Of a DNA stretch of 64,000 nt, positions 19,927 through 60,066 are shown in pieces. The translations under genes were made by a program, and so were the position numbers. The DNA comes from Escherichia coli (GTDB lineage Bacteria; Pseudomonadota; Gammaproteobacteria; Enterobacterales; Enterobacteriaceae). The stretch's first letter is position 1, and each line of letters begins with the position of its first letter. The notes under the pieces are model-generated. The model was not told the DNA's origin and did no database searches. It saw only the letters and a list, made by a program, of their open reading frames with translations. The stretch is from assembly GCF_009931435.1 (NCBI RefSeq), contig NZ_CP043414.1, one strand, 5' to 3'.

Positions 19927-20430
19927 TCACCCAACAATAACCGTCAGCGCATGATTCCCTTGCCGCAGCATACGTCGATACGCGCTAATCAGCTTTTCCA
20001 TATCGAGCATGATCGAAGCAAAGAGTTGCCCCTCTAACTCTTCTGAAAAGGTTACTCCCGGATAAATCTCCATTTCATTGAGTCGTTTAATGGAAAACTG
20101 TTTACGCAGCACATTTCGGTCAAGAGCTTCCAGTCGGTCGATTGTCGCGGCTAACTCCTGATTCCAGGTCAATCCCAGGAATCCATCTATGCCATCTTCG
20201 AGGCTGTGTTCACCAAGCACGGCACGACTCAGCGGATCATTCTTCGCGGGATCAAAAGCAGAGGTGCCTGTCAGCCCAAAGTGTAAAAAATCCCAGCGTT
20301 TATCAATATCCAGTCGGCGTAATCCTGAAAGCGTGTCATGTATATTATCCATCAAAGGTTTTTGAGTAGACTCAAGAAGTTGGTTAATCTTTTCTGAGTC
20401 AATTTCTGCAAAATAGCCAATCATTCCCAT
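19927..20430 (-). CDS. yfbM: DUF1877-family protein YfbM
   Basis: 167 aa ORF with ATG start; recognised as YfbM; convergent with nuoN. Confidence 0.85.
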   Translation of the reverse strand: MGMIGYFAEIDSEKINQLLESTQKPLMDNIHDTLSGLRRLDIDKRWDFLHFGLTGTSAFDPAKNDPLSRAVLGEHSLEDGIDGFLGLTWNQELAATIDRLEALDRNVLRKQFSIKRLNEMEIYPGVTFSEELEGQLFASIMLDMEKLISAYRRMLRQGNHALTVIVG

Positions 20431-20532
20431 TTTATTTTCCTCCGTTGAATTTCATGTTTCGCATCTTAAAACAGACGAGGGAAAATAAAATGTACATGTC
20501 GCTTTTTCTGGACCCGCCTCGAGAAATTTTTA

Positions 20533-21504
20533 TTATTTACTGTTGTATAACAAAGTTATAACCCCATCCACTACCTGAGCCATTTTCTGATAATTCAATC
20601 TGTCTGCGGTATCACCGGGCAAGTGGTATTGTTTATTACGATAAAAAGCGGTGTCGGTAATCATTACGGCGGGAATATCGTGTTGCCAATAATTAAGGTG
20701 ATCAGAGAAATCAATACCGGGAATAAACCCTGGGGCATTCATAGAATAAACAGATAAATCCTGAGATGACAACAATGCCGCTTTTAGCTGACGAACGGCG
20801 TTGATATCCTGCATTCTGCCGACCACGGCAATAAAGTCTCCCCGATCGGGATAAAGCCAGGACATTGCCGGGTAAGGGTAATCCTGACTACCAGGCGCAG
20901 AGTCGTAATAGCCAATCATCTCCAGCGCTATCATTAATCTAACTGGACGCTCAAGCGAAGCTGCATGTACCGCGCTCCCCATTTCATCGCTACGAAAGAA
21001 GGGCGGTTCTTCCGACGCATAGGCGACCAGCTGCACGCCAGTTTTCGGTGCTTGCTGCTGTAACAAACGTGCCAGTTCGAGTAATCCTGCCACGCCGCTG
21101 GCGTTATCATCCGCGCCCGGCGTATAGGTCAATTGATCGTTTTCATAACTGCTGACAGAATCATAGTGCGCACCAATAATAATCAGCGGTCCATCGGCAG
21201 GACCATAATCAGCAACAATGTTTTTGTAGGGACCTCCCGTAATGGGGACGTCCTGCGCGGTAACGCTGGCACCGCTACTGATAAAGACCTCTTTTATATA
21301 TTCTGCGGACCTTTTCAGATTATCAATATTGTCGGCACTACGGGGATGCACAGTTTGTGTAAGATAACGAACTGTTTTTTCTAATTGCTCAGGACTTGTG
21401 TGTCGGGGCGTTGGCGGTAATGCATTGACCCAGGGTTGGTAAAAAATAATCAGAGGGAGTGAAAACAGAATTAATATAATAAAAGCAAAGTTTATTTTTT
21501 TCAT
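20533..21504 (-). CDS. yfbL: M28-family aminopeptidase-like protein YfbL, signal peptide present
   Basis: 323 aa from the ATG at 21504 (the ORF-track start at 21510 is a TTG); N-terminal hydrophobic signal; metallopeptidase M28 hallmarks (HYDS ... DDNASG ... EE). Confidence 0.85.
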   Translation of the reverse strand: MKKINFAFIILILFSLPLIIFYQPWVNALPPTPRHTSPEQLEKTVRYLTQTVHPRSADNIDNLKRSAEYIKEVFISSGASVTAQDVPITGGPYKNIVADYGPADGPLIIIGAHYDSVSSYENDQLTYTPGADDNASGVAGLLELARLLQQQAPKTGVQLVAYASEEPPFFRSDEMGSAVHAASLERPVRLMIALEMIGYYDSAPGSQDYPYPAMSWLYPDRGDFIAVVGRMQDINAVRQLKAALLSSQDLSVYSMNAPGFIPGIDFSDHLNYWQHDIPAVMITDTAFYRNKQYHLPGDTADRLNYQKMAQVVDGVITLLYNSK

Positions 21505-21641
21505 ATGCAAATTATTAATGGGTTGCGTTATTGAATCATTATTTGTTATAGGTTTCGATATTGTATTTTATTAAGATTAGCAGGATTATACAAAGAGTAT
21601 ATTTTATGTCTGGTGCCTGAGTTTATTTAAAAGGATTTTAT

Positions 21642-23369
21642 ATGCGAAATAAAAATATAATCATGTTGCTTATGAGTAGTTTGATTTTGTCAGGATGTGG
21701 GCCGGAACCTGAGAATAAGGAAAGTCAGCAACAACAACCCAGTACTCCAACAGAGCAGCAAGTGCTTGCCGCGCAGCAAGCTGCAATAAAAGAGGCTGAG
21801 CAAAGCGCCGCCGCCGCGAAAGTCTTGGCCCAGCAAGAAGTGCAACAATATTCAGACAAACAGGCTTTACAGGGGCGATTGCAGGAAGCGCCAACATTTG
21901 CAAGAGCGGCTAAAGCAAAAGCTACACATGTCGCAAATCCAGGAACCGCTCGCTATCAGCAGTTCGATGATAATCCGGTTAAGCAGGTAGCGCAAAATCC
22001 GTTGGCGACGTTTAGTCTTGACGTTGACACTGGCAGTTATGCGAATGTACGGCGTTTCCTCAATCAAGGGCTGTTACCTCCGCCAGACGCTGTGCGGGTG
22101 GAGGAGATAGTCAATTATTTCCCGTCTGATTGGGATATCAAAGACAAACAATCTATTCCGGCCTCTAAGCCAATACCTTTCGCTATGCGCTACGAATTGG
22201 CACCTGCGCCATGGAATGAACAGCGAACATTGCTGAAAGTTGATATCCTGGCGAAAGATCGCAAAAGTGAAGAGTTACCAGCTTCTAATCTGGTCTTTCT
22301 TATCGACACTTCTGGTTCAATGATTTCTGATGAACGTTTGCCACTTATCCAGTCTTCGTTGAAATTATTGGTCAAAGAACTTCGTGAGCAGGATAACATT
22401 GCTATCGTGACCTACGCTGGCGACTCCCGTATTGCATTGCCTTCTATCTCCGGGAGTCATAAGGCGGAAATTAATGCCGCAATTGATTCGCTGGATGCCG
22501 AAGGCAGTACCAATGGCGGTGCCGGGCTGGAACTGGCTTATCAGCAGGCGGCGAAGGGGTTTATTAAGGGCGGTATCAATCGCATTTTATTGGCCACTGA
22601 CGGTGACTTTAACGTTGGTATTGACGATCCAAAATCGATTGAATCAATGGTCAAAAAACAGCGGGAGTCCGGTGTTACTCTGTCGACGTTTGGCGTGGGG
22701 GATGACAATTACAACGAGGCAATGATGGTGCGAATTGCCGATGTTGGCAACGGTAACTACAGCTACATTGATACCCTCTCTGAAGCGCAGAAAGTATTGA
22801 ACAGTGAAATGCGGCAGACGTTGATTACCGTAGCAAAAGATGTCAAAGCGCAAATTGAGTTTAACCCCGCGTGGGTAACGGAATACCGTCAGATTGGTTA
22901 TGAAAAGCGCCAACTTCGGGCGGAAGATTTTAATAACGACAACGTTGATGCGGGGGATATTGGCGCAGGCAAACATATAACGTTGTTATTTGAATTAACG
23001 CTGAACGGGCAAAAAGCATCAATTGATAAGTTACGCTATGCCCCGGATAACAAATCAGCGAAATCGGACAAAACGAAAGAACTGGCCTGGTTAAAAATTC
23101 GCTGGAAATACCCGCAGGGAAAAGAAAGTCAGTTAGTTGAATTCCCGCTGGGGCCAATAATAAACGCGCCCTCTGAAGATATGCGTTTTCGCGCAGCAGT
23201 AGCTGCATATGGGCAAAAGTTACGCGGTTCTGAATACCTGGACGAAATCTCATGGCAGCAGATAAAACAGTGGGCTCAGCAGGCAAAAGGGGAAGATCCA
23301 CAGGGTTACAGGGCGGAATTTATTCGCCTGGTTGAACTGGCGGATGGGGTGACTGGCATCAGTCCGTGA
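21642..23369 (+). CDS. yfbK: von Willebrand factor type A (vWA) domain lipoprotein YfbK
   Basis: 575 aa; lipobox LILSGC at the N-terminus; vWA MIDAS motif DTSGSM; AAGGA RBS upstream. Confidence 0.85.
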   Translation: MRNKNIIMLLMSSLILSGCGPEPENKESQQQQPSTPTEQQVLAAQQAAIKEAEQSAAAAKVLAQQEVQQYSDKQALQGRLQEAPTFARAAKAKATHVANPGTARYQQFDDNPVKQVAQNPLATFSLDVDTGSYANVRRFLNQGLLPPPDAVRVEEIVNYFPSDWDIKDKQSIPASKPIPFAMRYELAPAPWNEQRTLLKVDILAKDRKSEELPASNLVFLIDTSGSMISDERLPLIQSSLKLLVKELREQDNIAIVTYAGDSRIALPSISGSHKAEINAAIDSLDAEGSTNGGAGLELAYQQAAKGFIKGGINRILLATDGDFNVGIDDPKSIESMVKKQRESGVTLSTFGVGDDNYNEAMMVRIADVGNGNYSYIDTLSEAQKVLNSEMRQTLITVAKDVKAQIEFNPAWVTEYRQIGYEKRQLRAEDFNNDNVDAGDIGAGKHITLLFELTLNGQKASIDKLRYAPDNKSAKSDKTKELAWLKIRWKYPQGKESQLVEFPLGPIINAPSEDMRFRAAVAAYGQKLRGSEYLDEISWQQIKQWAQQAKGEDPQGYRAEFIRLVELADGVTGISP

Positions 23370-23395
23370 TGACTTTTTAGCAAACTATGTTCGAT

Positions 23396-23417
23396 CAGTC
23401 AGCATATTTGCTGACTG
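23396..23417. terminator. Hairpin between convergent yfbK and elaD (possible bidirectional terminator)
   Basis: Inverted repeat cagtcagca / tgctgactg with a 4-nt loop. Confidence 0.45.
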
Positions 23418-23439
23418 GTCGAATTGACTAACAATGATG

Positions 23440-24654
23440 TTAACTTACTCTTTTGCCTGATGCTCTATTTTGGGGTTGTGAGTGTTTTATTTCTAAGTCT
23501 CTATAATAATCATTGATATTTGCATCGCCATATTTATCTAAATAACAATTTCTGTTTACCTGTCGATGTTGAAAATCAATTTCGTACTGCTCTTCTGCTG
23601 AATATTTTTTAAATCTGTCAGCATAGTTTTTTAATAACGTATAGGGAGCGCTGTCAGAATTGCTTTCCCTTTGTTCAATTACTTCTTTGGCTGCCATGCA
23701 CACAAATGCACCGCAACTTTGGCTTAAGTATTGCTGAAGATCGGCATGTAAAAATGTTATCTCTTGTTCAGTTAAATGATCTGTTATATTCTTATTATTC
23801 GGCATTTCCCCCATGAATTTAGAATTGAAACTATTAATGACACGCTTAAGTGAATTTTCTTTATCATGGCCTAGTGCACGTAATGAGTTGAATATGACGC
23901 ATTTTATTTGTTGTGTGTTATTTTTTTCATTAACTATTTTTTGTAGCGAAACTAATATCCAGTGTCCGCCAGTATTTATGGGGAATAACTGGACTTCTTT
24001 CGGCCATGATGGATCGCTCTTAATATTATCATTGAGAGCGATTTCCAGGTAAGTGCTGTTGGAATCGGGGAGGTAGAGACCAGTAGGATAATTGACTTGA
24101 GTATTTTTTGCATTAGCGGCGATCTTCTGAAGATAGCAATCTATTTCATCCGTGGTTAATTGACGATTTTTATCCCAGAAGTTTGTACCATCGCTCAGTT
24201 CATTATTCTTATCATTTAAAAGTACCTTTGAAAGCGACTGTTTTTCTGATATGAGAGGAATGTCCTCACCGATAATTGTCATTAATTTCGAAGGGGAGAA
24301 TAGTTTTTTGAACAGGAGATTATCTGAATTATGTGATTTGAGGGGGTGTTTGGTTGCGGTATGTGCCAAATTATATAATTTTAAACAGGCATTTTTTATA
24401 AGCTTGATAATCGATAGGGTATCATTTGTTGGGTTTCTAACAATATGGTAAAGAATATCTTCAGCTTTTTTTCCAAATTCATCATAACCTAACGCAATAT
24501 TATGCAGTAACTCAATGCTTTCTTCATCTCCGGATAACGCTGTTTTTTTTAAAGACTGCAGTAATTCCTCGGTCACAGTAAATTTTTCTGCAAATGTCTG
24601 ACAGAGTTGGGTTTGAGATAATTGACAATAATTGCTGACAACTGTAACCATCAT
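23440..24654 (-). CDS. elaD: ElaD, CE-clan cysteine protease with deubiquitinase activity
   Basis: 404 aa ORF in a markedly AT-rich stretch; recognised as E. coli ElaD (..[16 protein letters not shown].. catalytic His region). Confidence 0.85.
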
Positions 24655-54798: not shown

Positions 54799-56157
54799 AT
54801 GTTGAGTATTTTTAAACCGGCGCCACACAAAGCGCGCTTACCTGCCGCGGAGATCGATCCGACTTATCGTCGATTGCGCTGGCAAATTTTCCTGGGGATA
54901 TTCTTTGGCTATGCTGCTTACTATTTGGTTCGTAAGAACTTTGCGCTCGCTATGCCTTACCTGGTGGAGCAGGGATTCTCACGCGGTGATTTAGGTTTCG
55001 CGCTTTCTGGGATCTCGATCGCCTATGGATTTTCGAAATTCATCATGGGTTCGGTGTCGGATCGCTCGAATCCGCGCGTTTTCCTCCCCGCAGGTTTGAT
55101 TCTGGCGGCGGCAGTGATGCTGTTTATGGGCTTTGTGCCATGGGCGACATCGAGCATTGCGGTAATGTTTGTACTGTTGTTCCTCTGCGGCTGGTTCCAG
55201 GGGATGGGGTGGCCGCCGTGTGGTCGTACTATGGTGCACTGGTGGTCGCAGAAAGAACGTGGCGGCATTGTGTCGGTGTGGAACTGTGCGCACAACGTCG
55301 GTGGTGGTATTCCGCCGCTGCTGTTCCTGCTGGGGATGGCCTGGTTCAATGACTGGCACGCGGCCCTCTATATGCCCGCTTTCTGCGCCATTCTGGTGGC
55401 ACTATTCGCCTTTGCGATGATGCGCGATACCCCACAATCCTGTGGCTTGCCGCCGATCGAAGAGTACAAAAACGATTATCCGGACGACTATAACGAAAAA
55501 GCGGAACAGGAGCTGACCGCAAAGCAAATTTTCATGCAGTACGTGCTGCCGAACAAACTGCTGTGGTACATCGCCATCGCCAACGTGTTCGTTTATCTGC
55601 TGCGTTACGGCATCCTCGACTGGTCACCGACCTACCTGAAAGAAGTTAAGCATTTCGCGCTGGATAAATCCTCCTGGGCCTACTTCCTTTATGAATATGC
55701 GGGCATTCCGGGCACCCTGTTATGCGGCTGGATGTCGGATAAAGTCTTCCGCGGTAACCGTGGGGCAACCGGCGTCTTCTTTATGACACTGGTGACCATC
55801 GCAACTATCGTTTACTGGATGAACCCGGCGGGCAATCCCAACGTCGATATGATTTGTATGATTGTCATCGGCTTCTTGATCTACGGTCCTGTGATGTTGA
55901 TCGGTCTGCATGCGCTGGAACTGGCACCGAAAAAAGCGGCAGGTACGGCAGCGGGCTTTACCGGTCTGTTTGGTTACCTGGGCGGTTCGGTGGCGGCGAG
56001 CGCGATTGTTGGTTACACCGTGGACTTCTTCGGCTGGGATGGCGGTTTTATGGTAATGATTGGCGGCAGCATCCTGGCGGTTATCCTGTTGATAGTTGTG
56101 ATGATTGGCGAAAAACGTCGCCATCAGGAATTACTGCAAAAACGCAATGGAGGCTAA
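54799..56157 (+). CDS. glpT: Glycerol-3-phosphate:phosphate antiporter GlpT (MFS)
   Basis: 452 aa; GGAGG RBS; 12-TM organophosphate:Pi antiporter. Confidence 0.92.
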
Positions 56158-56161
56158 TGGC

Positions 56162-57238
56162 ATGAAATTGACGCTGAAAAACCTTAGCATGGCGATCATG
56201 ATGAGTGGAATGATCATGGGAAGCAGTGCAATGGCGGCGGATAGCAACGAAAAAATAGTCATCGCCCATCGCGGTGCCAGTGGATATTTACCGGAGCATA
56301 CGCTGCCAGCAAAAGCGATGGCGTATGCGCAGGGGGCAGATTATCTGGAACAGGATTTGGTGATGACCAAAGACGACCATCTGGTTGTTCTGCATGACCA
56401 TTATCTCGATCGTGTTACTGATGTCGCCGATCGTTTCCCGGACAGGGCGCGTAAAGATGGCCGTTACTACGCGATAGATTTTACGCTGGATGAAATTAAG
56501 TCGCTGAAATTTACCGAAGGTTTCGATATTGAAAACGGTAAAAAAGTGCAGACTTATCCGGGGCGTTTCCCGATGGGTAAGTCTGACTTCCGGGTGCACA
56601 CCTTTGAAGAAGAGATTGAATTTGTTCAGGGGTTAAATCACTCTACCGGGAAAAATATCGGTATCTATCCAGAAATTAAAGCGCCGTGGTTCCATCATCA
56701 GGAAGGGAAGGATATTGCGGCAAAAACGCTGGAAGTGCTGAAGAAATATGGTTACACCGGCAAGGACGACAAAGTTTATTTGCAATGTTTTGATGTTGAT
56801 GAACTGAAGCGCATTAAAAATGAGCTGGAACCCAAAATGGGCATGGACCTCAATCTGGTACAGTTGATTGCCTATACCGACTGGAATGAAACGCAGCAGA
56901 AACAGCCGGACGGAAGCTGGGTTAATTACAGCTATGACTGGATGTTCAAGCCGGGCGCTATGAAACAGGTAGCGGAATATGCTGATGGCATTGGTCCGGA
57001 TTACCATATGGTGATTGAGGAGACATCGCAGCCGGGTAATATCAAGCTTACCGGAATGGTAAAAGATGCACAGCAGAATAAGCTGGTGGTGCATCCTTAT
57101 ACCGTGCGGGTCGACAAGCTGCCGGAATATGCCACCGATGTGAATCAGTTGTATGATGCTCTGTATAACAAAGCGGGTGTAAATGGGCTGTTTACTGATT
57201 TCCCTGATAAGGCAGTAAAATTCCTTAATAAAGAGTAA
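56162..57238 (+). CDS. glpQ: Periplasmic glycerophosphodiester phosphodiesterase GlpQ
   Basis: 358 aa from MKLTLKNLSMAIMMSGMIMGSSAMA (signal peptide); HRGASGYLPEHT catalytic motif. Confidence 0.92.
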   Translation: MKLTLKNLSMAIMMSGMIMGSSAMAADSNEKIVIAHRGASGYLPEHTLPAKAMAYAQGADYLEQDLVMTKDDHLVVLHDHYLDRVTDVADRFPDRARKDGRYYAIDFTLDEIKSLKFTEGFDIENGKKVQTYPGRFPMGKSDFRVHTFEEEIEFVQGLNHSTGKNIGIYPEIKAPWFHHQEGKDIAAKTLEVLKKYGYTGKDDKVYLQCFDVDELKRIKNELEPKMGMDLNLVQLIAYTDWNETQQKQPDGSWVNYSYDWMFKPGAMKQVAEYADGIGPDYHMVIEETSQPGNIKLTGMVKDAQQNKLVVHPYTVRVDKLPEYATDVNQLYDALYNKAGVNGLFTDFPDKAVKFLNKE

Positions 57239-57245
57239 TGCTACT

Positions 57246-57274
57246 GCAGGATGGCGTTTATGCGCCATCCTCTG
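57246..57274 (+). terminator. Hairpin just downstream of glpQ
   Basis: ggatggcg / cgccatcc stem with a 6-nt loop, 8 nt after the glpQ stop; no strong T-run. Confidence 0.45.
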
Positions 57275-57457
57275 CTAAAGCGAAATAATGCTACTACCGG
57301 TTATTCTTTTCATTAACGGGTGCATCCTGTAAAAAGATGCCAACATAATTTTCGTAAAACTCATTCGTTAAAAAAGCTAACACTGTGCATTGTTATTCTT
57401 TAAACAGTATGAATAGGTCTCAATAATAAATTGTAATGCAGTTTATACTGTAAAGTA

Positions 57458-58528
57458 TTATTCGAATTTCGGAAAGGTAAAGAAAATATTAATGTATCTT
57501 ATTAATTTATCATATTGTTCTTGGGTGAATGCTGTTTGCACACCTTCAGGGCAATATTTACCAGTAATAACCAGTTGCCCATTGCTGTGTTGTACCATTA
57601 AACCTTCTTTTTCCTTTGGATCTACAAAATTAGAATTATCAAATGTGAAGATATTTTTTTCCTGTTTTGAGTAAGTAAAGAAATCTCGTGTATAGCTGAA
57701 ACTATCATTTATTAATGGTGCTAACTTTTTGTCGGCGATATCGATAAGCTCACCACTTAATTTATTGATGTATTTAATTTGCTTCAATTTTTTCTGCGCT
57801 TGCACAATTTGCTTGTAGGTGTTTTCAATTTTTTTAGAAGAATTCTTAAATACATCATAGCGTTCCTCGGAGGATGTGTATTTGTACCATTCTGTATTTT
57901 TCTCAGAATGTTGTAGCAGGTCTGTATATTTTTTTTGATCGCTGTAAAGTTGACTTTTAATACTTTCCTCACTGCTGATCTTATAATGTTTATCAGAGTT
58001 GTTTGTTTTTGAAATGTCCTTTTCTGTCAGTGTCTGGTCCGTGTTGTGGGTATTTTCTTTTGCAACATGCTCATTGATGATGTTAATTGCAGTTTCATAT
58101 TCATTTAAATTTATTGTTCTTTGTGAAAGAAACCCTTCTTTGCTTTCGATACTCAAAACACCTTCGTTGTTTTCACCTCTGGTAAAGGTAAGGATATAGG
58201 GTTCATAATCTTCTGCAAATTCATTTTTATACGTTATGACATGCTCGACAAAATGTCTTATTGGTACGAAACCATAACTGTGAACGTCAATTTTTTTGGT
58301 CTTGACACTATCAATTTCATCTGAGGCTTTCGTGAAAAAAGCCAATAAATTAGCTATGTTGTCTGCTGAGGTTGATAACCCGAATCTACTTTGAGATATT
58401 TTTAGAAACTCATTGCAAAAAATCTCAAGTTTCGCGGTTTGTTGTGATTCTTTGTAAATTTCTGCTGTTTGCAATTTATTATTTTGTAAAATATTACAGC
58501 GAGATAAGTGAATAGATGTATTTGGCAT
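57458..58528 (-). CDS. Orphan hypothetical protein of about 356 aa, no family recognised; AT-rich, foreign-looking
   Basis: Long uninterrupted ORF in a very AT-rich block; ATG at 58528 preceded by AAGGA at good spacing (the track start at 58564 is a TTG); Lys/Glu/Ser/Asn-rich, no TM segment, no motif I can place. Confidence 0.6.
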   Translation of the reverse strand: MPNTSIHLSRCNILQNNKLQTAEIYKESQQTAKLEIFCNEFLKISQSRFGLSTSADNIANLLAFFTKASDEIDSVKTKKIDVHSYGFVPIRHFVEHVITYKNEFAEDYEPYILTFTRGENNEGVLSIESKEGFLSQRTINLNEYETAINIINEHVAKENTHNTDQTLTEKDISKTNNSDKHYKISSEESIKSQLYSDQKKYTDLLQHSEKNTEWYKYTSSEERYDVFKNSSKKIENTYKQIVQAQKKLKQIKYINKLSGELIDIADKKLAPLINDSFSYTRDFFTYSKQEKNIFTFDNSNFVDPKEKEGLMVQHSNGQLVITGKYCPEGVQTAFTQEQYDKLIRYINIFFTFPKFE

Positions 58529-58993
58529 AAATGATTCCTTGTAGTGTGAGTTAACAAGATACAATTTAATCTTTGCAGAATATATTCACTATCAAATTTA
58601 GCTCATTTTATTACGAAGACCTTTACGCATGTTAGAAAGTATCATTATTGTTAATAAATACGGTAATAAGTAACAAACAGATATTGATAACTTCCCTGAC
58701 AAGTTATTAGGTATCCCACTTGAAGATTGAGAATGGCTCCAGAGTAGACTGTGTACTGTTCGCCGGAGTGTCATTACTCTCAACAATCGGTTTTGACAGT
58801 GAGTCGGGCGCTTCATACCGGTTTCTACCTGGAGTCATTGTCACTTCCCTAATCTGGATAAATATTTATCGCTAATTCACAAAGTGGACCAAAATCAGGT
58901 GAAAACGAATTATTACGCATGGTAAAGACTACAGGCCAACTAAGTGTGGCGAATCAGACAATCTTACATTTGTCATCAATCTCATGTCTCACA

Positions 58994-59212
58994 TCAAATT
59001 TTTCCACTCACCACGAGTTGTTCCGTACACGTTTGTAGTAAAAACAGTGGACTGCCTTCTACCGGCTTTTCTTTAGCCAACAACGAAATCTGTCGATAGA
59101 AGGTTGGTTCGTGAGGAACGGAACACAATTCACCTGCAATGGTTTTCAGCGTTAACTCTGGTAATAAGGCGATGCCTAATCCCTGTCGAATAAAATTCAT
59201 CGCTGTATCCAT
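58994..59212 (-). pseudogene. yfaH: C-terminal fragment of a LysR-type regulator (yfaH-like remnant)
   Basis: 72 aa ORF resembling only the C-terminal effector-domain end of LysR proteins (GLGIALLPELTLK...); no HTH-encoding region upstream. Confidence 0.5.
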
Positions 59213-59415
59213 CTGATTAAATTCACATTTTATTTGCTGGGCGCACTATTAGTGGTAGTGGCTGGTGGAGTCTATGCGCTGCAAATGAAGGGTAAAAGCG
59301 GTGTCGCGCTAGTAGTGGCAAAAGAAATTCATTAATACGACACGTTTCATTAAGATTTTTCGCAGGTAACCACCTATAGTCATTGTCGTTAATAAAAAAT
59401 GACAGGCGATAGGGT

Positions 59416-60066
59416 ATGGCAGTTTCAGCAAAGCACGATGAATTTAATCACTGGTGGGCAACAGAGGGCGACTGGGTTGAAGAGCCTAACTATCGCCGTA
59501 ATGGTATGAGCGGGGTGCAATGCGTCGAGCGCAACGGCAAAAAGCTGTATGTGAAGCGCATGACGCATCATCTGTTTCATTCCGTACGTTATCCGTTCGG
59601 TCGACCGACGATTGTCCGTGAGGTTGCGGTAATTAAAGAGCTGGAACGGGCTGGTGTCATTGTGCCGAAAATCGTTTTTGGTGAAGCGGTGAAAATTGAG
59701 GGTGAATGGCGCGCGTTGCTGGTGACGGAAGATATGGCGGGGTTCATAAGTATTGCTGACTGGTATGCCCAGCATGCAGTAACACCTTATTCTGACGATG
59801 TTCGGCAAGCCATGTTGAAAGCTGTGGCGATGGCGTTTAAGAAAATGCATAGCGTTAATCGTCAGCATGGCTGTTGTTACGTTCGCCACATCTATGTGAA
59901 AACAGAAGGTATGGTAGAAGCTGGTTTTCTTGATCTGGAGAAAAGTCGTCGCCGCTTACGTCGGCATAAAGCGATTAATCATGATTTCCGCCAGCTGGAA
60001 AAATATCTGGAGCCGATCCCTAAAGCGGACTGGGAGCAGGTTAAAGCGTATTACTACGCCATGTAA
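59416..60066 (+). CDS. inaA: Acid-inducible Kdo/WaaP-family kinase-like protein InaA
   Basis: 216 aa ORF with ATG start; recognised as InaA. Confidence 0.88.
   Translation: MAVSAKHDEFNHWWATEGDWVEEPNYRRNGMSGVQCVERNGKKLYVKRMTHHLFHSVRYPFGRPTIVREVAVIKELERAGVIVPKIVFGEAVKIEGEWRALLVTEDMAGFISIADWYAQHAVTPYSDDVRQAMLKAVAMAFKKMHSVNRQHGCCYVRHIYVKTEGMVEAGFLDLEKSRRRLRRHKAINHDFRQLEKYLEPIPKADWEQVKAYYYAM

What the first reader, a model, noticed from the sequence alone, without database searches (positions are those of the whole stretch)
57275..58993. AT-rich foreign-looking block with a single orphan gene between glpQ and the yfaH/inaA region
Everything else in the window follows E. coli K-12 gene order, but between the glpQ terminator and the yfaH fragment there is about 1.7 kb of very low-GC DNA with one long ORF (57458-58528, minus strand) that I cannot assign to any family. 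From memory, K-12 has only a short glpQ-yfaH-inaA spacer with no gene here. The composition suggests horizontal acquisition, and a compact single-gene insert in a variable spot is the typical architecture of anti-phage defence or toxin cargo.
Basis: partly seen in the sequence, partly recalled or inferred. Interest (0 to 1): 0.8.

Follow-up and report, generated by a model that had tools for sequence, protein, structure and literature searches.

The report
AT-rich orphan-gene islet beside glpQ
A 1.7-kb AT-rich piece of foreign DNA, carrying one Escherichia-only gene of unknown function (ECs_3123 in O157:H7 Sakai), sits between glpQ and the yfaH remnant; it is a real insertion and probably a real gene, but nothing ties it to phage defence.

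Summary
Window 57272-58985 (1714 bp, GC 0.33 against 0.51 for the window) is absent from K-12 MG1655. There, and in E. albertii, the convergent glpQ and LysR/yfaH genes are about 41 bp apart; Salmonella and Citrobacter also have short spacers. So the block is an insertion in the E. coli lineage, not a K-12 deletion.

It carries one 356-aa ORF (57458-58528, minus strand), annotated as hypothetical protein ECs_3123 in O157:H7 Sakai. The gene is in 1052 of 5426 complete E. coli genomes, and at this locus in every locus I inspected.

It has no relatives outside Escherichia among about 15 billion proteins. It matches nothing in Pfam, NCBIfam, PADLOC or PDB sequences, and AlphaFold fails on it (pLDDT about 41).

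All 10 distinct alleles are intact, with no uncompensated frameshift. Amino-acid constraint is weak (dN/dS about 0.6), and IS1 disrupts the gene in roughly a fifth of carriers.

Best reading: a horizontally acquired, dispensable orphan gene that is probably silenced by H-NS. The foreign-insert interpretation is supported; the defence or toxin interpretation has no positive evidence. Interest is modest.

The parts
57272..58985 (.). Inserted AT-rich block (1714 bp, GC 0.332), placed between the glpQ terminator hairpin and the stop codon of the LysR/yfaH gene.
   Evidence: BLAST of the window against the K-12-like locus L002 breaks at 57271/58982. Reading the junctions against L002 and E. albertii L009 gives empty site CCATCCTG|TCTCAC and filled site CCATCCT[CTGCT...CTCAT]GTCTCAC. 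Composition. No terminal inverted repeats or target-site duplication.
57458..58528 (-). [not shown]
   Evidence: ORF and translation. Annotation in other genomes. Intact in all 12 copies examined, 10 of them distinct. No homologues outside Escherichia. Protein properties.
58535..58540 (-). Shine-Dalgarno sequence AAGGAA, 6 nt upstream of the ATG at 58528. It favours the 356-aa start over the TTG at 58564 (368 aa).
   Evidence: Read directly from the sequence. Invariant in all 12 alleles.
58241..58258 (-). Codons R91-H-F-V-E-H96, the only Rx4-6H motif in the protein. It is invariant and lies at the start of a predicted helix. This is a lead only (a HEPN-like motif).
   Evidence: Regex scan. Invariance. 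Secondary structure taken from low-confidence AF2 models.
57893..58048 (-). Central segment, aa 161-212. Its substitution density is 4-5 times higher than the rest at both synonymous and non-synonymous sites. It is probably a linker, with old divergent haplotypes.
   Evidence: Protein alignment. Per-region substitution counts.
57902..57936 (-). Stretch where the O157/D8/A16 allele carries a -1 and a +1 indel 34 nt apart, a compensated frameshift (NIQTCYYILR in place of KYTDLLLHSE). The window has the majority, in-frame version.
58707..58838 (-). Candidate 43-aa upstream small ORF (MTPGRNRYEAPDSLSKPIVESNDTPANSTQSTLEPFSIFKWDT) with a GGGAAG/GGGAGAAG Shine-Dalgarno sequence. It is open in all 12 alleles. 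Evidence that it is a gene is weak.
   Evidence: Called as a gene in L017. No NCBIfam hit.
57296..57321 (-). Candidate terminator hairpin downstream of the orphan gene (ACCGGTTA...TAACCGGT). It is perfect in most alleles and has one mismatch in the window.
   Evidence: Sequence and allele alignment. The terminator scanner did not flag it, so this is inference only.
57249..57270 (+). glpQ terminator hairpin (GGATGGCG-TTTAT-GCGCCATCC). It forms the left edge of the insertion site and is conserved in the empty sites of K-12-type strains and E. albertii.
58994..59241 (-). yfaH, the 3' remnant of the LysR regulator gene (z3495 / ECs_3122). It flanks the insert on the right. The window shares the K-12-type deletion of about 1.87 kb that removed the 5' part of the LysR gene and most of the MFS gene (junction at 59229-59241).
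   Evidence: NCBIfam NF007272 (YfaH) matches LysR residues 226-292. PMC10819331 describes z3494/z3495.

Best explanation
The block is a small piece of horizontally acquired DNA. It entered the E. coli lineage after the split from E. albertii, by illegitimate (non-site-specific) insertion into the roughly 41-bp spacer between the convergent genes glpQ and the LysR regulator gene z3495/yfaH. Homologous recombination through the conserved flanks has since passed it between lineages and removed it from others.

Its one long ORF is a genuine protein-coding gene. It encodes a cytoplasmic, hydrophilic 356-aa protein that is largely helical (this secondary structure comes from low-confidence AF2 models). 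Selection keeps the reading frame open, but amino-acid constraint is weak. The gene is dispensable: about 81% of complete genomes lack it and IS1 often disrupts it.

With 33% GC and a high density of H-NS-motif-like sites, it is most likely bound and silenced by H-NS under ordinary conditions. Any function would then be conditional and accessory.

What is shown: the insertion, the distribution, the orphan status, and the selection on the frame. What is inferred: H-NS silencing, cytoplasmic location, and an accessory role. The biochemical activity is unknown.
For: Insertion:
- E. albertii, Salmonella and Citrobacter have nrdAB-yfaE-MFS-LysR-glpQ with 42-115 bp between the LysR and glpQ stops.
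- The empty junction of K-12-type strains aligns base for base with that of E. albertii. MG1655 has a 41-bp spacer.

Foreign composition: GC 0.332 against 0.512 for the window, and GC3 0.31 against 0.50-0.65 in neighbouring genes.

Distribution:
- Present in 1052 of 5426 complete E. coli genomes, always chromosomal, with a median of one copy per genome.
- All four combinations of orphan present/absent with LysR-MFS intact/deleted exist, which requires recombination.
- Divergence at four-fold degenerate sites between the window and other strains is 0.00-0.07 in the orphan, against 0.09-0.22 in glpT, glpQ and nrdB and 0.02-0.17 in inaA. The orphan figure is lower in nearly every comparison (for L001, 0.000 against 0.021 in inaA), so the insert is younger than the lineage splits.

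Orphan status:
- Only Escherichia proteins at 70% identity or more were found in an exhaustive HMMER scan of 1.84 billion representatives and in a word-index search of 5.8 billion clusters.
- The only hit among 100,044 species-representative genomes is an E. coli-like contig in a MAG.

Real gene:
- All 10 distinct alleles are 1071 nt and open.
- Substitutions placed at random would be expected to create 4.0 stop codons in the set chosen by DNA similarity alone (P of none = 0.014). For all alleles the figures are 6.9 expected stops and P = 6.6e-4.
- The ORF's 1071 nt hold no uncompensated indel and one compensated -1/+1 pair. The 643 nt of non-coding insert hold 4-7 indels.
- dN/dS is 0.44-0.69. 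The Shine-Dalgarno sequence is conserved.

Dispensable: IS1 insertions or deletions in L021, L022 and L018, and 8 of 40 evenly sampled carriers are IS1-disrupted.

H-NS: 9 of the window's 68 matches to TCGATAAATT (up to 2 mismatches) fall in the 2.7% of the window occupied by the insert. That H-NS silences AT-rich foreign DNA in E. coli and Salmonella is established knowledge (see, for example, the abstracts of PMC2646131 and PMC4764244).
Against: - Variable-site density in the ORF (0.074) equals that of the non-coding parts of the insert (0.070-0.086), and codon positions 1/2/3 vary 51/34/42 times. Constraint on the protein sequence is therefore slight.
- The statistical support for frame maintenance is moderate (P about 0.01 in the unbiased set), not overwhelming.
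- AlphaFold2 gives no confident fold (pLDDT 41.8 and 40.9).
- No donor and no insertion mechanism were identified.
Confidence: 0.6

Rival explanations
1. It is single-gene anti-phage defence or toxin cargo. One version would be an abortive-infection RNase that uses the invariant R91-x4-H96 motif as a HEPN-like active site.
For: - A compact, AT-rich accessory insert with patchy strain distribution.
- Fast protein evolution and a hypervariable central segment.
- One invariant Rx4H motif at the start of a predicted helix that follows three predicted helices.
Against: - No PADLOC family at E<=1, and no HEPN or Abi family in Pfam at E<=10.
- No match in phages, plasmids or IMG/VR.
- No neighbouring defence or mobility genes, and the site shows only empty or filled states with no alternative cargo.
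- dN/dS is below 1 everywhere. The 'hypervariable' segment is raised at synonymous sites as well, which points to divergent haplotypes rather than positive selection.
- A single Rx4-6H motif in a 356-aa protein with 8 Arg residues and 2.5% His is expected by chance about one time in five (my estimate).
- The gene is frequently inactivated by IS1.
Confidence: 0.12
2. It is a non-functional relic: an ORF that came in with the foreign DNA, is neutral in E. coli, and simply has not yet decayed.
For: - Substitution density equals that of the adjacent non-coding DNA, and dN/dS is 0.5-0.8.
- The gene is absent from 81% of genomes and IS1-disrupted in about 20% of carriers. Truncated protein clusters exist (P0016, P0019).
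- AF2 finds no fold.
- Low four-fold-site divergence suggests the insert is young, leaving little time for decay.
Against: - All 10 distinct alleles are open, although 4-7 stop-creating substitutions would be expected (P = 0.014 to 6.6e-4).
- Indels are common in the non-coding part of the insert but absent from the ORF, apart from one compensated pair.
- Pooled non-synonymous to synonymous events are 98:36, against a neutral expectation of about 108:26. That is one-sided P of about 0.01 (my calculation).
- The ribosome-binding site is conserved.
Confidence: 0.22
3. [not shown]
For: - It lies 465 bp downstream of z3495 on the same strand.
- The N-terminal 22 residues are rich in Ser/Thr/Asn/Gln and contain no acidic residue.
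- It is present in O157:H7.
Against: - The LysR-MFS pair predates the insert: it sits in the same place, without the orphan, in E. albertii, Salmonella and Citrobacter.
- The orphan persists where the LysR gene is deleted (the window, L001, L014, L015, L017), and the intact LysR gene exists without the orphan (L020).
- The OI-97 study attributes its phenotypes to z3495 and never mentions z3496.
- The N-terminal composition has very low specificity.
Confidence: 0.04
4. The gene is ancestral to E. coli and K-12 lost it by deletion, so the block is not an insert.
For: - K-12 does carry a deletion at this locus that removed the 5' part of the LysR gene and most of the MFS gene.
- The orphan occurs in a divergent lineage (the window) as well as in mainstream E. 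coli.
Against: - The K-12 empty junction matches the E. albertii junction and has the same spacer length, 41 against 42 bp. A secondary deletion would have had to be base-perfect.
- Outgroup genera also lack the block.
- The orphan is 3-5 times less diverged at neutral sites than its flanks.
- Species representatives of other Escherichia gave no hit.
Confidence: 0.02

Closest known systems
AT-rich, fast-evolving 'ORFan' genes of E. coli (the class described by Daubin and Ochman, Genome Research 2004; cited from my own knowledge)
   Same: Restricted to one species or genus, much lower GC than the host, a high non-synonymous to synonymous ratio, patchy strain distribution, no detectable donor, and no assigned function.
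   Different: At 356 aa it is long for an ORFan. It sits alone in a clean 1.7-kb insertion between two convergent core genes rather than in a prophage or a larger island, and selection for an open frame is measurable.
Small strain-specific segments of O157:H7 relative to K-12 ('O islands' of EDL933). The nearest example is OI-97 (z3494 MFS plus z3495 LysR; PMC10819331).
   Same: It is a segment present in O157:H7 (ECs_3123 in Sakai) and absent from K-12, directly adjacent to OI-97. Only the yfaH remnant shared with K-12 separates the two.
H-NS-silenced horizontally acquired loci in E. coli and Salmonella (xenogeneic silencing; for example the bgl operon, PMC2646131)
   Same: About 33% GC in a 51% GC genome, enrichment of H-NS-motif-like sites, dispensability, and repeated inactivation in natural isolates.
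   Different: H-NS binding and silencing have not been shown for this locus. I found no ChIP or expression data.
Single-gene abortive-infection or HEPN-type defence proteins
   Same: One gene with no partner, accessory distribution, and a single invariant Rx4H motif.
   Different: No HMM similarity to any defence or HEPN family, no hotspot or mobile-element context, and no fold evidence.

Membership tests
Known or candidate anti-phage defence systems (PADLOC-DB v2.0.0) | The protein matches an HMM of a defence-system component. | tested here: not met
   0 families at E<=1.
Defence-island or integration-hotspot cargo | The same chromosomal site carries different cargo in different strains, and/or is flanked by defence or mobility genes (integrase, tRNA, direct repeats). 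| tested here: not met
   About 20 loci were inspected. Each is either empty or holds this same block, plus IS1 events. No terminal repeats. Only a sample of the 5426 genomes was read.
HEPN-domain RNases | An Rx4-6H catalytic motif. | tested here: met
   R91-HFVE-H96 is present once and is invariant. The chance expectation is roughly 0.2.
HEPN-domain RNases | Profile similarity to a HEPN family, or a four-helix HEPN fold. | tested here: not met
   No HEPN or Abi Pfam family at E<=10, no PADLOC hit and no PDB sequence hit. The fold could not be assessed because the AF2 models have pLDDT of about 41.
Type II toxin-antitoxin pair | Two small adjacent co-oriented genes, usually overlapping or less than 30 nt apart, at least one from a known toxin or antitoxin family. 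| tested here: not met
   The only partner candidate is a 43-aa ORF 178 nt upstream with no family hit. The 356-aa protein has no family hit either.
Horizontally acquired genomic islet (xenogeneic DNA) | Atypical base composition and codon usage relative to the host. | tested here: met
   GC 0.332 against 0.512; GC3 0.31 against 0.50-0.65; local CAI 0.51 against 0.65-0.79.
Horizontally acquired genomic islet (xenogeneic DNA) | Absent from the orthologous site in sister species, and patchy within the species. | tested here: met
   Empty site in E. albertii, Salmonella and Citrobacter. Present in 1052 of 5426 E. coli genomes.
Horizontally acquired genomic islet (xenogeneic DNA) | An identifiable donor or mobility signature. 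| tested here: not met
   No match in phages, plasmids, IMG/VR, GTDB species representatives or 15 billion proteins outside Escherichia. No target-site duplication or inverted repeats.
Taxonomically restricted (orphan) protein-coding gene | No homologue outside the genus in an exhaustive search. | tested here: met
Taxonomically restricted (orphan) protein-coding gene | Evidence that the ORF is maintained as coding. | tested here: met
   No stops where 4-7 were expected (P = 0.014 to 6.6e-4), no uncompensated indels, one compensated frameshift, and dN/dS of about 0.6. The strength of this evidence is moderate.
H-NS-silenced locus | H-NS occupancy, and de-repression in an hns mutant. | not testable with these tools
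   Only indirect evidence: AT-richness and a five-fold enrichment of motif-like sites. No data turned up in the papers searched.
Type III secretion effector | Secretion or translocation that depends on a type III secretion system. | not testable with these tools
   There is only a non-specific N-terminal composition. The gene also persists where the neighbouring LEE regulator gene (the LysR regulator z3495) is deleted, as in the window and L014.

The most novel reading that the evidence does not exclude
The 356-aa protein founds a new, Escherichia-only protein family with a conflict-related activity, either phage defence or a toxin. It might act through the invariant RHFVEH motif as a HEPN-like RNase. 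On this reading it was acquired recently from an unsampled AT-rich donor and is spreading between E. coli lineages by recombination.
Probability: 0.12. Interest if true: 0.65.

Novelty: new member of a known kind. Interest (0 to 1): 0.3.

Why it matters
The gene sits in about a fifth of complete E. coli genomes, including O157:H7, next to a regulator reported to control LEE virulence genes. Yet it has no relative among about 15 billion proteins and no literature. It is a clean, datable example of how E. coli picks up an orphan gene: the empty site, filled site, outgroups and recombinant forms are all available. The same data show how such a gene is weakly maintained, shuffled between lineages and knocked out by IS1.

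There is also a practical point. RefSeq's 'frameshifted' pseudogene flags on many alleles are artefacts of the reference allele chosen, because that allele carries a compensated double frameshift. If the protein proved to have a defence or toxin activity it would define a new family. On present evidence that is unlikely, and the finding is an ordinary, if well-resolved, ORFan islet.

Tried and rejected
- **Family searches of the ORF.** Pfam, NCBIfam, PADLOC and PHROGs gave nothing usable. The best results were PHROG 18177 (unknown function, E = 0.05) and BLOC1S3 (E = 0.51), both treated as noise.
- **PDB sequence searches,** with the single sequence and with a profile. Only T4 gp53 (E = 0.46) and 6lbs (E = 0.27) appeared, and I rejected both as chance matches.
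- **AlphaFold2.** The full-length protein with an 8-sequence alignment gave pLDDT 41.8. The N-terminal 165 residues with 10 alleles gave pLDDT 40.9. I ran no fold searches, because models of this quality give meaningless matches.
- **Internal-repeat idea.** The two beta-meander-plus-helix modules (about residues 112-160 and 311-351) show no significant similarity to each other (BLASTP E = 7.6).
- **Mobile-element signatures.** No terminal inverted repeats or target-site duplication, no tRNA context, and no Rfam match.
- **Promoter and terminator scan.** Fewer promoter-like sites than in shuffled sequence, and no terminator flagged.
- **Donor search.** DNA and protein searches of phages, plasmids, IMG/VR and GTDB species representatives found nothing. 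The exceptions were a 4.9-Mb chromosome mislabelled as a plasmid and an E. coli-like contig in a 'Collinsella' MAG.
- **72-aa upstream ORF (58598-58816).** Rejected as a gene because it has stops in L001 and L016.
- **PGAP 'frameshifted' flags.** Checked and rejected as evidence of decay.
Full report
**1. The observation**

GC is 0.30-0.35 in every 300-nt window across 57250-58749. Most flanking windows are at about 0.45-0.58.

- The block as delimited below has GC 0.332, against 0.512 for the whole window. Its core (57501-58500, GC 0.326) is the lowest-GC 1-kb bin of the window.
- The ORF at 57458-58528 on the minus strand is 356 codons plus a stop. It starts at an ATG preceded by AAGGAA with a 6-nt spacer.
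- The other five frames of the same stretch hold 15-39 stops. An open frame of this length in such AT-rich DNA is far beyond chance.
- GC3 is 0.31, against 0.50-0.65 for glpT, glpQ, inaA, nrdA and nrdB. A CAI computed against those neighbours is 0.51, against 0.65-0.79 for the neighbours themselves.

**2. Boundaries, and insertion versus deletion**

A K-12-like genome (L002) matches the window up to 57271 and again from 58982. Reading the junctions gives:

- empty site: CCATCCTG|TCTCACATC
- filled site: CCATCCT[CTGCTAAAG...AATCTCAT]GTCTCACATC

The block is therefore 57272-58985, 1714 bp. It lies between the glpQ terminator hairpin and a point 9 bp beyond the stop codon of the LysR/yfaH gene.

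MG1655 has yfaH and glpQ 41 bp apart. I used orthologues of the full-length LysR protein as an anchor to examine outgroups:

- E. albertii, Salmonella enterica and Citrobacter all have nrdA-nrdB-yfaE-MFS-LysR-glpQ-glpT.
- The spacers between the convergent LysR and glpQ stops are only 42, 115 and 60 bp.
- The E. albertii junction aligns with the K-12 empty site.

The empty state is therefore ancestral, and the AT-rich block is a gain in the E. coli lineage. It has no target-site duplication, no terminal inverted repeats and no mobility gene. Rfam finds nothing.

**3. Distribution and locus forms**

The ORF is present in 1052 of 5426 complete E. coli genomes. It is always chromosomal, with a median of one copy per genome, and it lies at this locus in every locus I inspected. 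Six locus forms occur:

- **(A)** glpQ-orphan-LysR-MFS-inaA: O157:H7 FRIK2533 and Sakai, D8, A16.
- **(B)** glpQ-orphan-yfaH remnant-inaA: the window, R32_14_1F, L014, L015, L017.
- **(C)** glpQ-yfaH remnant-inaA: K-12 type.
- **(D)** glpQ-inaA.
- **(E)** glpQ-LysR-MFS-inaA without the orphan.
- **(F)** IS1-associated disruptions and deletions.

The window and K-12 share the same roughly 1.87-kb deletion that made yfaH, yet they differ in the orphan. All four combinations of the two polymorphisms exist, so homologous recombination has shuffled them.

Differences at four-fold degenerate sites between the window and other strains are 0.00-0.07 in the orphan. They are 0.09-0.22 in glpT, glpQ and nrdB, and 0.02-0.17 in inaA. 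The orphan figure is lower in nearly every comparison; the one close case is L001, at 0.000 against 0.021 in inaA. Mutational AT bias can explain only a small part of that gap (my estimate). The insert alleles therefore coalesce more recently than the lineages that carry them.

The window itself is about 94% identical to most E. coli. It comes from a divergent lineage labelled E. coli, and I did not identify it further.

**4. What the gene is**

No paper in the searchable library mentions the gene.

The protein has no family:

- PADLOC and NCBIfam give nothing. Pfam and PHROGs give only noise, and PDB sequence searches give only noise.
- A word-index search of 5.8 billion clusters, and an exhaustive HMMER scan of 1.84 billion representatives standing for about 15 billion proteins, return only Escherichia sequences at 70% identity or more.
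- A scan of 100,044 species-representative genomes returns one E. coli-like 3.5-kb contig in a 'Collinsella' MAG.
- Phages, plasmids and IMG/VR give nothing. The one 'plasmid' hit is a 4.9-Mb mislabelled chromosome.

AlphaFold2 fails on the full-length protein (pLDDT 41.8) and on the N-terminal 165 residues (pLDDT 40.9), so I attempted no fold comparison.

The protein is hydrophilic (GRAVY -0.73), has pI 6.2, and is rich in K, E, I, S, N and T. On reading the sequence I see no signal peptide or membrane segment. The low-confidence models suggest:

- N-terminal helices,
- a beta-meander plus helix at about residues 112-160,
- a variable linker,
- long helices at about residues 180-290,
- a second beta-meander plus helix at about residues 311-351.

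**5. Is it a real gene?**

I compared 12 copies, 10 of them distinct.

- **Length and frame.** All copies are exactly 1071 nt and open.
- **PGAP flags.** The 'frameshifted' flags on L001, L005 and L006 are artefacts. The RefSeq reference allele (O157/D8 type) has a -1 and a +1 indel 34 nt apart that recode ten residues.
- **Stop codons.** Placing the observed substitutions at random, keeping their base-change spectrum, predicts 4.0 new stops for the alleles chosen by DNA similarity alone (P of none = 0.014). For all alleles it predicts 6.9 (P = 6.6e-4). The latter set is biased towards intact proteins.
- **Indels.** There are 4-7 in the 643 nt of non-coding insert. The ORF's 1071 nt hold none, apart from the compensated pair.
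- **Constraint on residues.** dN/dS is 0.5-0.8 pairwise and 0.44-0.69 by region, against 0.02-0.06 for glpQ and inaA.
- **Central segment.** Residues 161-212 are 4-5 times more variable at synonymous and non-synonymous sites alike. That points to divergent haplotypes rather than positive selection.
- **Overall rate.** The ORF varies as fast as the adjacent non-coding DNA (0.074 against 0.070-0.086).

The frame is maintained, but the residues are only weakly constrained.

The gene is dispensable. IS1 interrupts it in 8 of 40 evenly sampled carriers (example L021). Other IS1 events delete part or all of it.

**6. How it probably works**

Shown:

- it is a foreign insertion;
- it is an orphan;
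- its frame is maintained;
- its amino-acid constraint is weak;
- it is often lost or disrupted;
- it has moved between lineages by recombination.

Inferred:

- With 33% GC and a five-fold enrichment of H-NS-motif-like sites, it is most likely silenced by H-NS, as AT-rich acquired DNA generally is in E. coli.
- The protein would be cytoplasmic.
- Any role would be conditional and accessory.

Its biochemical activity is unknown.

The only lead is an invariant R91-HFVE-H96 at the start of a predicted helix, which fits the HEPN Rx4-6H motif. Such a motif is expected by chance about one time in five, and no profile supports it.

**7.

The foreign-insert part is right. The 'defence or toxin cargo' part has no positive evidence:

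- no defence HMM;
- no phage or mobile-element link;
- no alternative cargo at the site;
- no sign of diversifying selection.

**8. Comparison with what is known, and verdict**

The block fits the class of AT-rich, fast-evolving E. coli ORFans and the small O157-versus-K-12 strain-specific segments. It differs from its neighbour OI-97, which is ancestral DNA that K-12 deleted.

I file it as a new (uncharacterised) member of a known kind. A specialist would not be surprised by it. Its value is as a very cleanly resolved orphan-gene gain in a medically important species.

- Interest: 0.3.
- Most novel reading not excluded: a founder of a new conflict-related protein family. Probability about 0.12; interest if true about 0.65.

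Noticed in passing
L001 3559-4629; L005 and L006 5001-6071; window 57902-57936: RefSeq/PGAP marks the orphan gene as 'frameshifted' in several genomes, although those ORFs are intact. The reference allele (O157/D8 type) itself carries a compensated -1/+1 pair, so the majority alleles look frameshifted against it.
   Followed up: yes
window 59229-59241 (junction); L003 5344-7210: The window carries the same roughly 1.87-kb deletion as K-12, which removed the 5' part of the LysR gene (z3495) and most of the MFS gene (z3494) and left yfaH and a 105-nt MFS fragment. That region (OI-97 in EDL933) is ancestral enterobacterial DNA lost by K-12, not a gain by O157.
   Followed up: yes
L009 4442-4659; L010 4647-4649; L012 4589-4593; window 59416-60066: inaA is absent between yfaE and the MFS gene in E. 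albertii, Salmonella and Citrobacter. inaA may therefore be a second lineage-specific insertion at this locus in E. coli.
   Followed up: no
window 56162-57238 (glpQ) and 54799-56157 (glpT): glpQ is unusually diverse among E. coli (dS 0.07-0.25 between strains, 0.25-0.30 to the window). The window lineage differs from mainstream E. coli by about 0.15-0.20 at four-fold sites of glpT and nrdB, so it comes from a divergent lineage labelled E. coli.
   Followed up: partly
L021 2501-4348; L022 4001-5472; L018 6287-6984: IS1 has hit this AT-rich locus repeatedly and independently: once inside the orphan ORF, once leaving only its last 201 nt and deleting into the MFS gene, and once with a large deletion from nudI to inaA.
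   Followed up: partly
window 58707-58838 (-): A 43-aa ORF with a good Shine-Dalgarno sequence lies 178 nt upstream of the orphan gene. It is open in all 12 alleles and a gene caller called it in L017. It matches no family and is too short to test.
   Followed up: partly
L008 (JAIJJM010000334.1, 3474 bp): A contig carrying this E. coli-specific gene at 89% identity is binned in a 'Collinsella sp.' MAG. This is almost certainly binning contamination.
   Followed up: no
P0023 (408 aa, ENA metagenome): A predicted protein fuses a nucleotidyltransferase (PF01467/PF05636) to residues 13-135 of the orphan. It is probably a chimeric assembly rather than a real fusion.
   Followed up: no
window 23501-24500 (within 20000-24000): This is the window's second low-GC spot (GC 0.345), in the yfbL-elaD-yfbM region. 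Only 2523 of 5426 genomes cover 80% or more of 20000-24000, so it is another variable segment.
   Followed up: no
L004 3701-4777: glpQ of O157:H7 strain FRIK2533 is annotated as a pseudogene with an internal stop.
   Followed up: no
window 57236-57245 and 57287-57296: The 10-mer TAATGCTACT at the glpQ stop codon recurs just inside the left end of the insert. It could be chance in AT-rich DNA, or a trace of how the block was joined.
   Followed up: no
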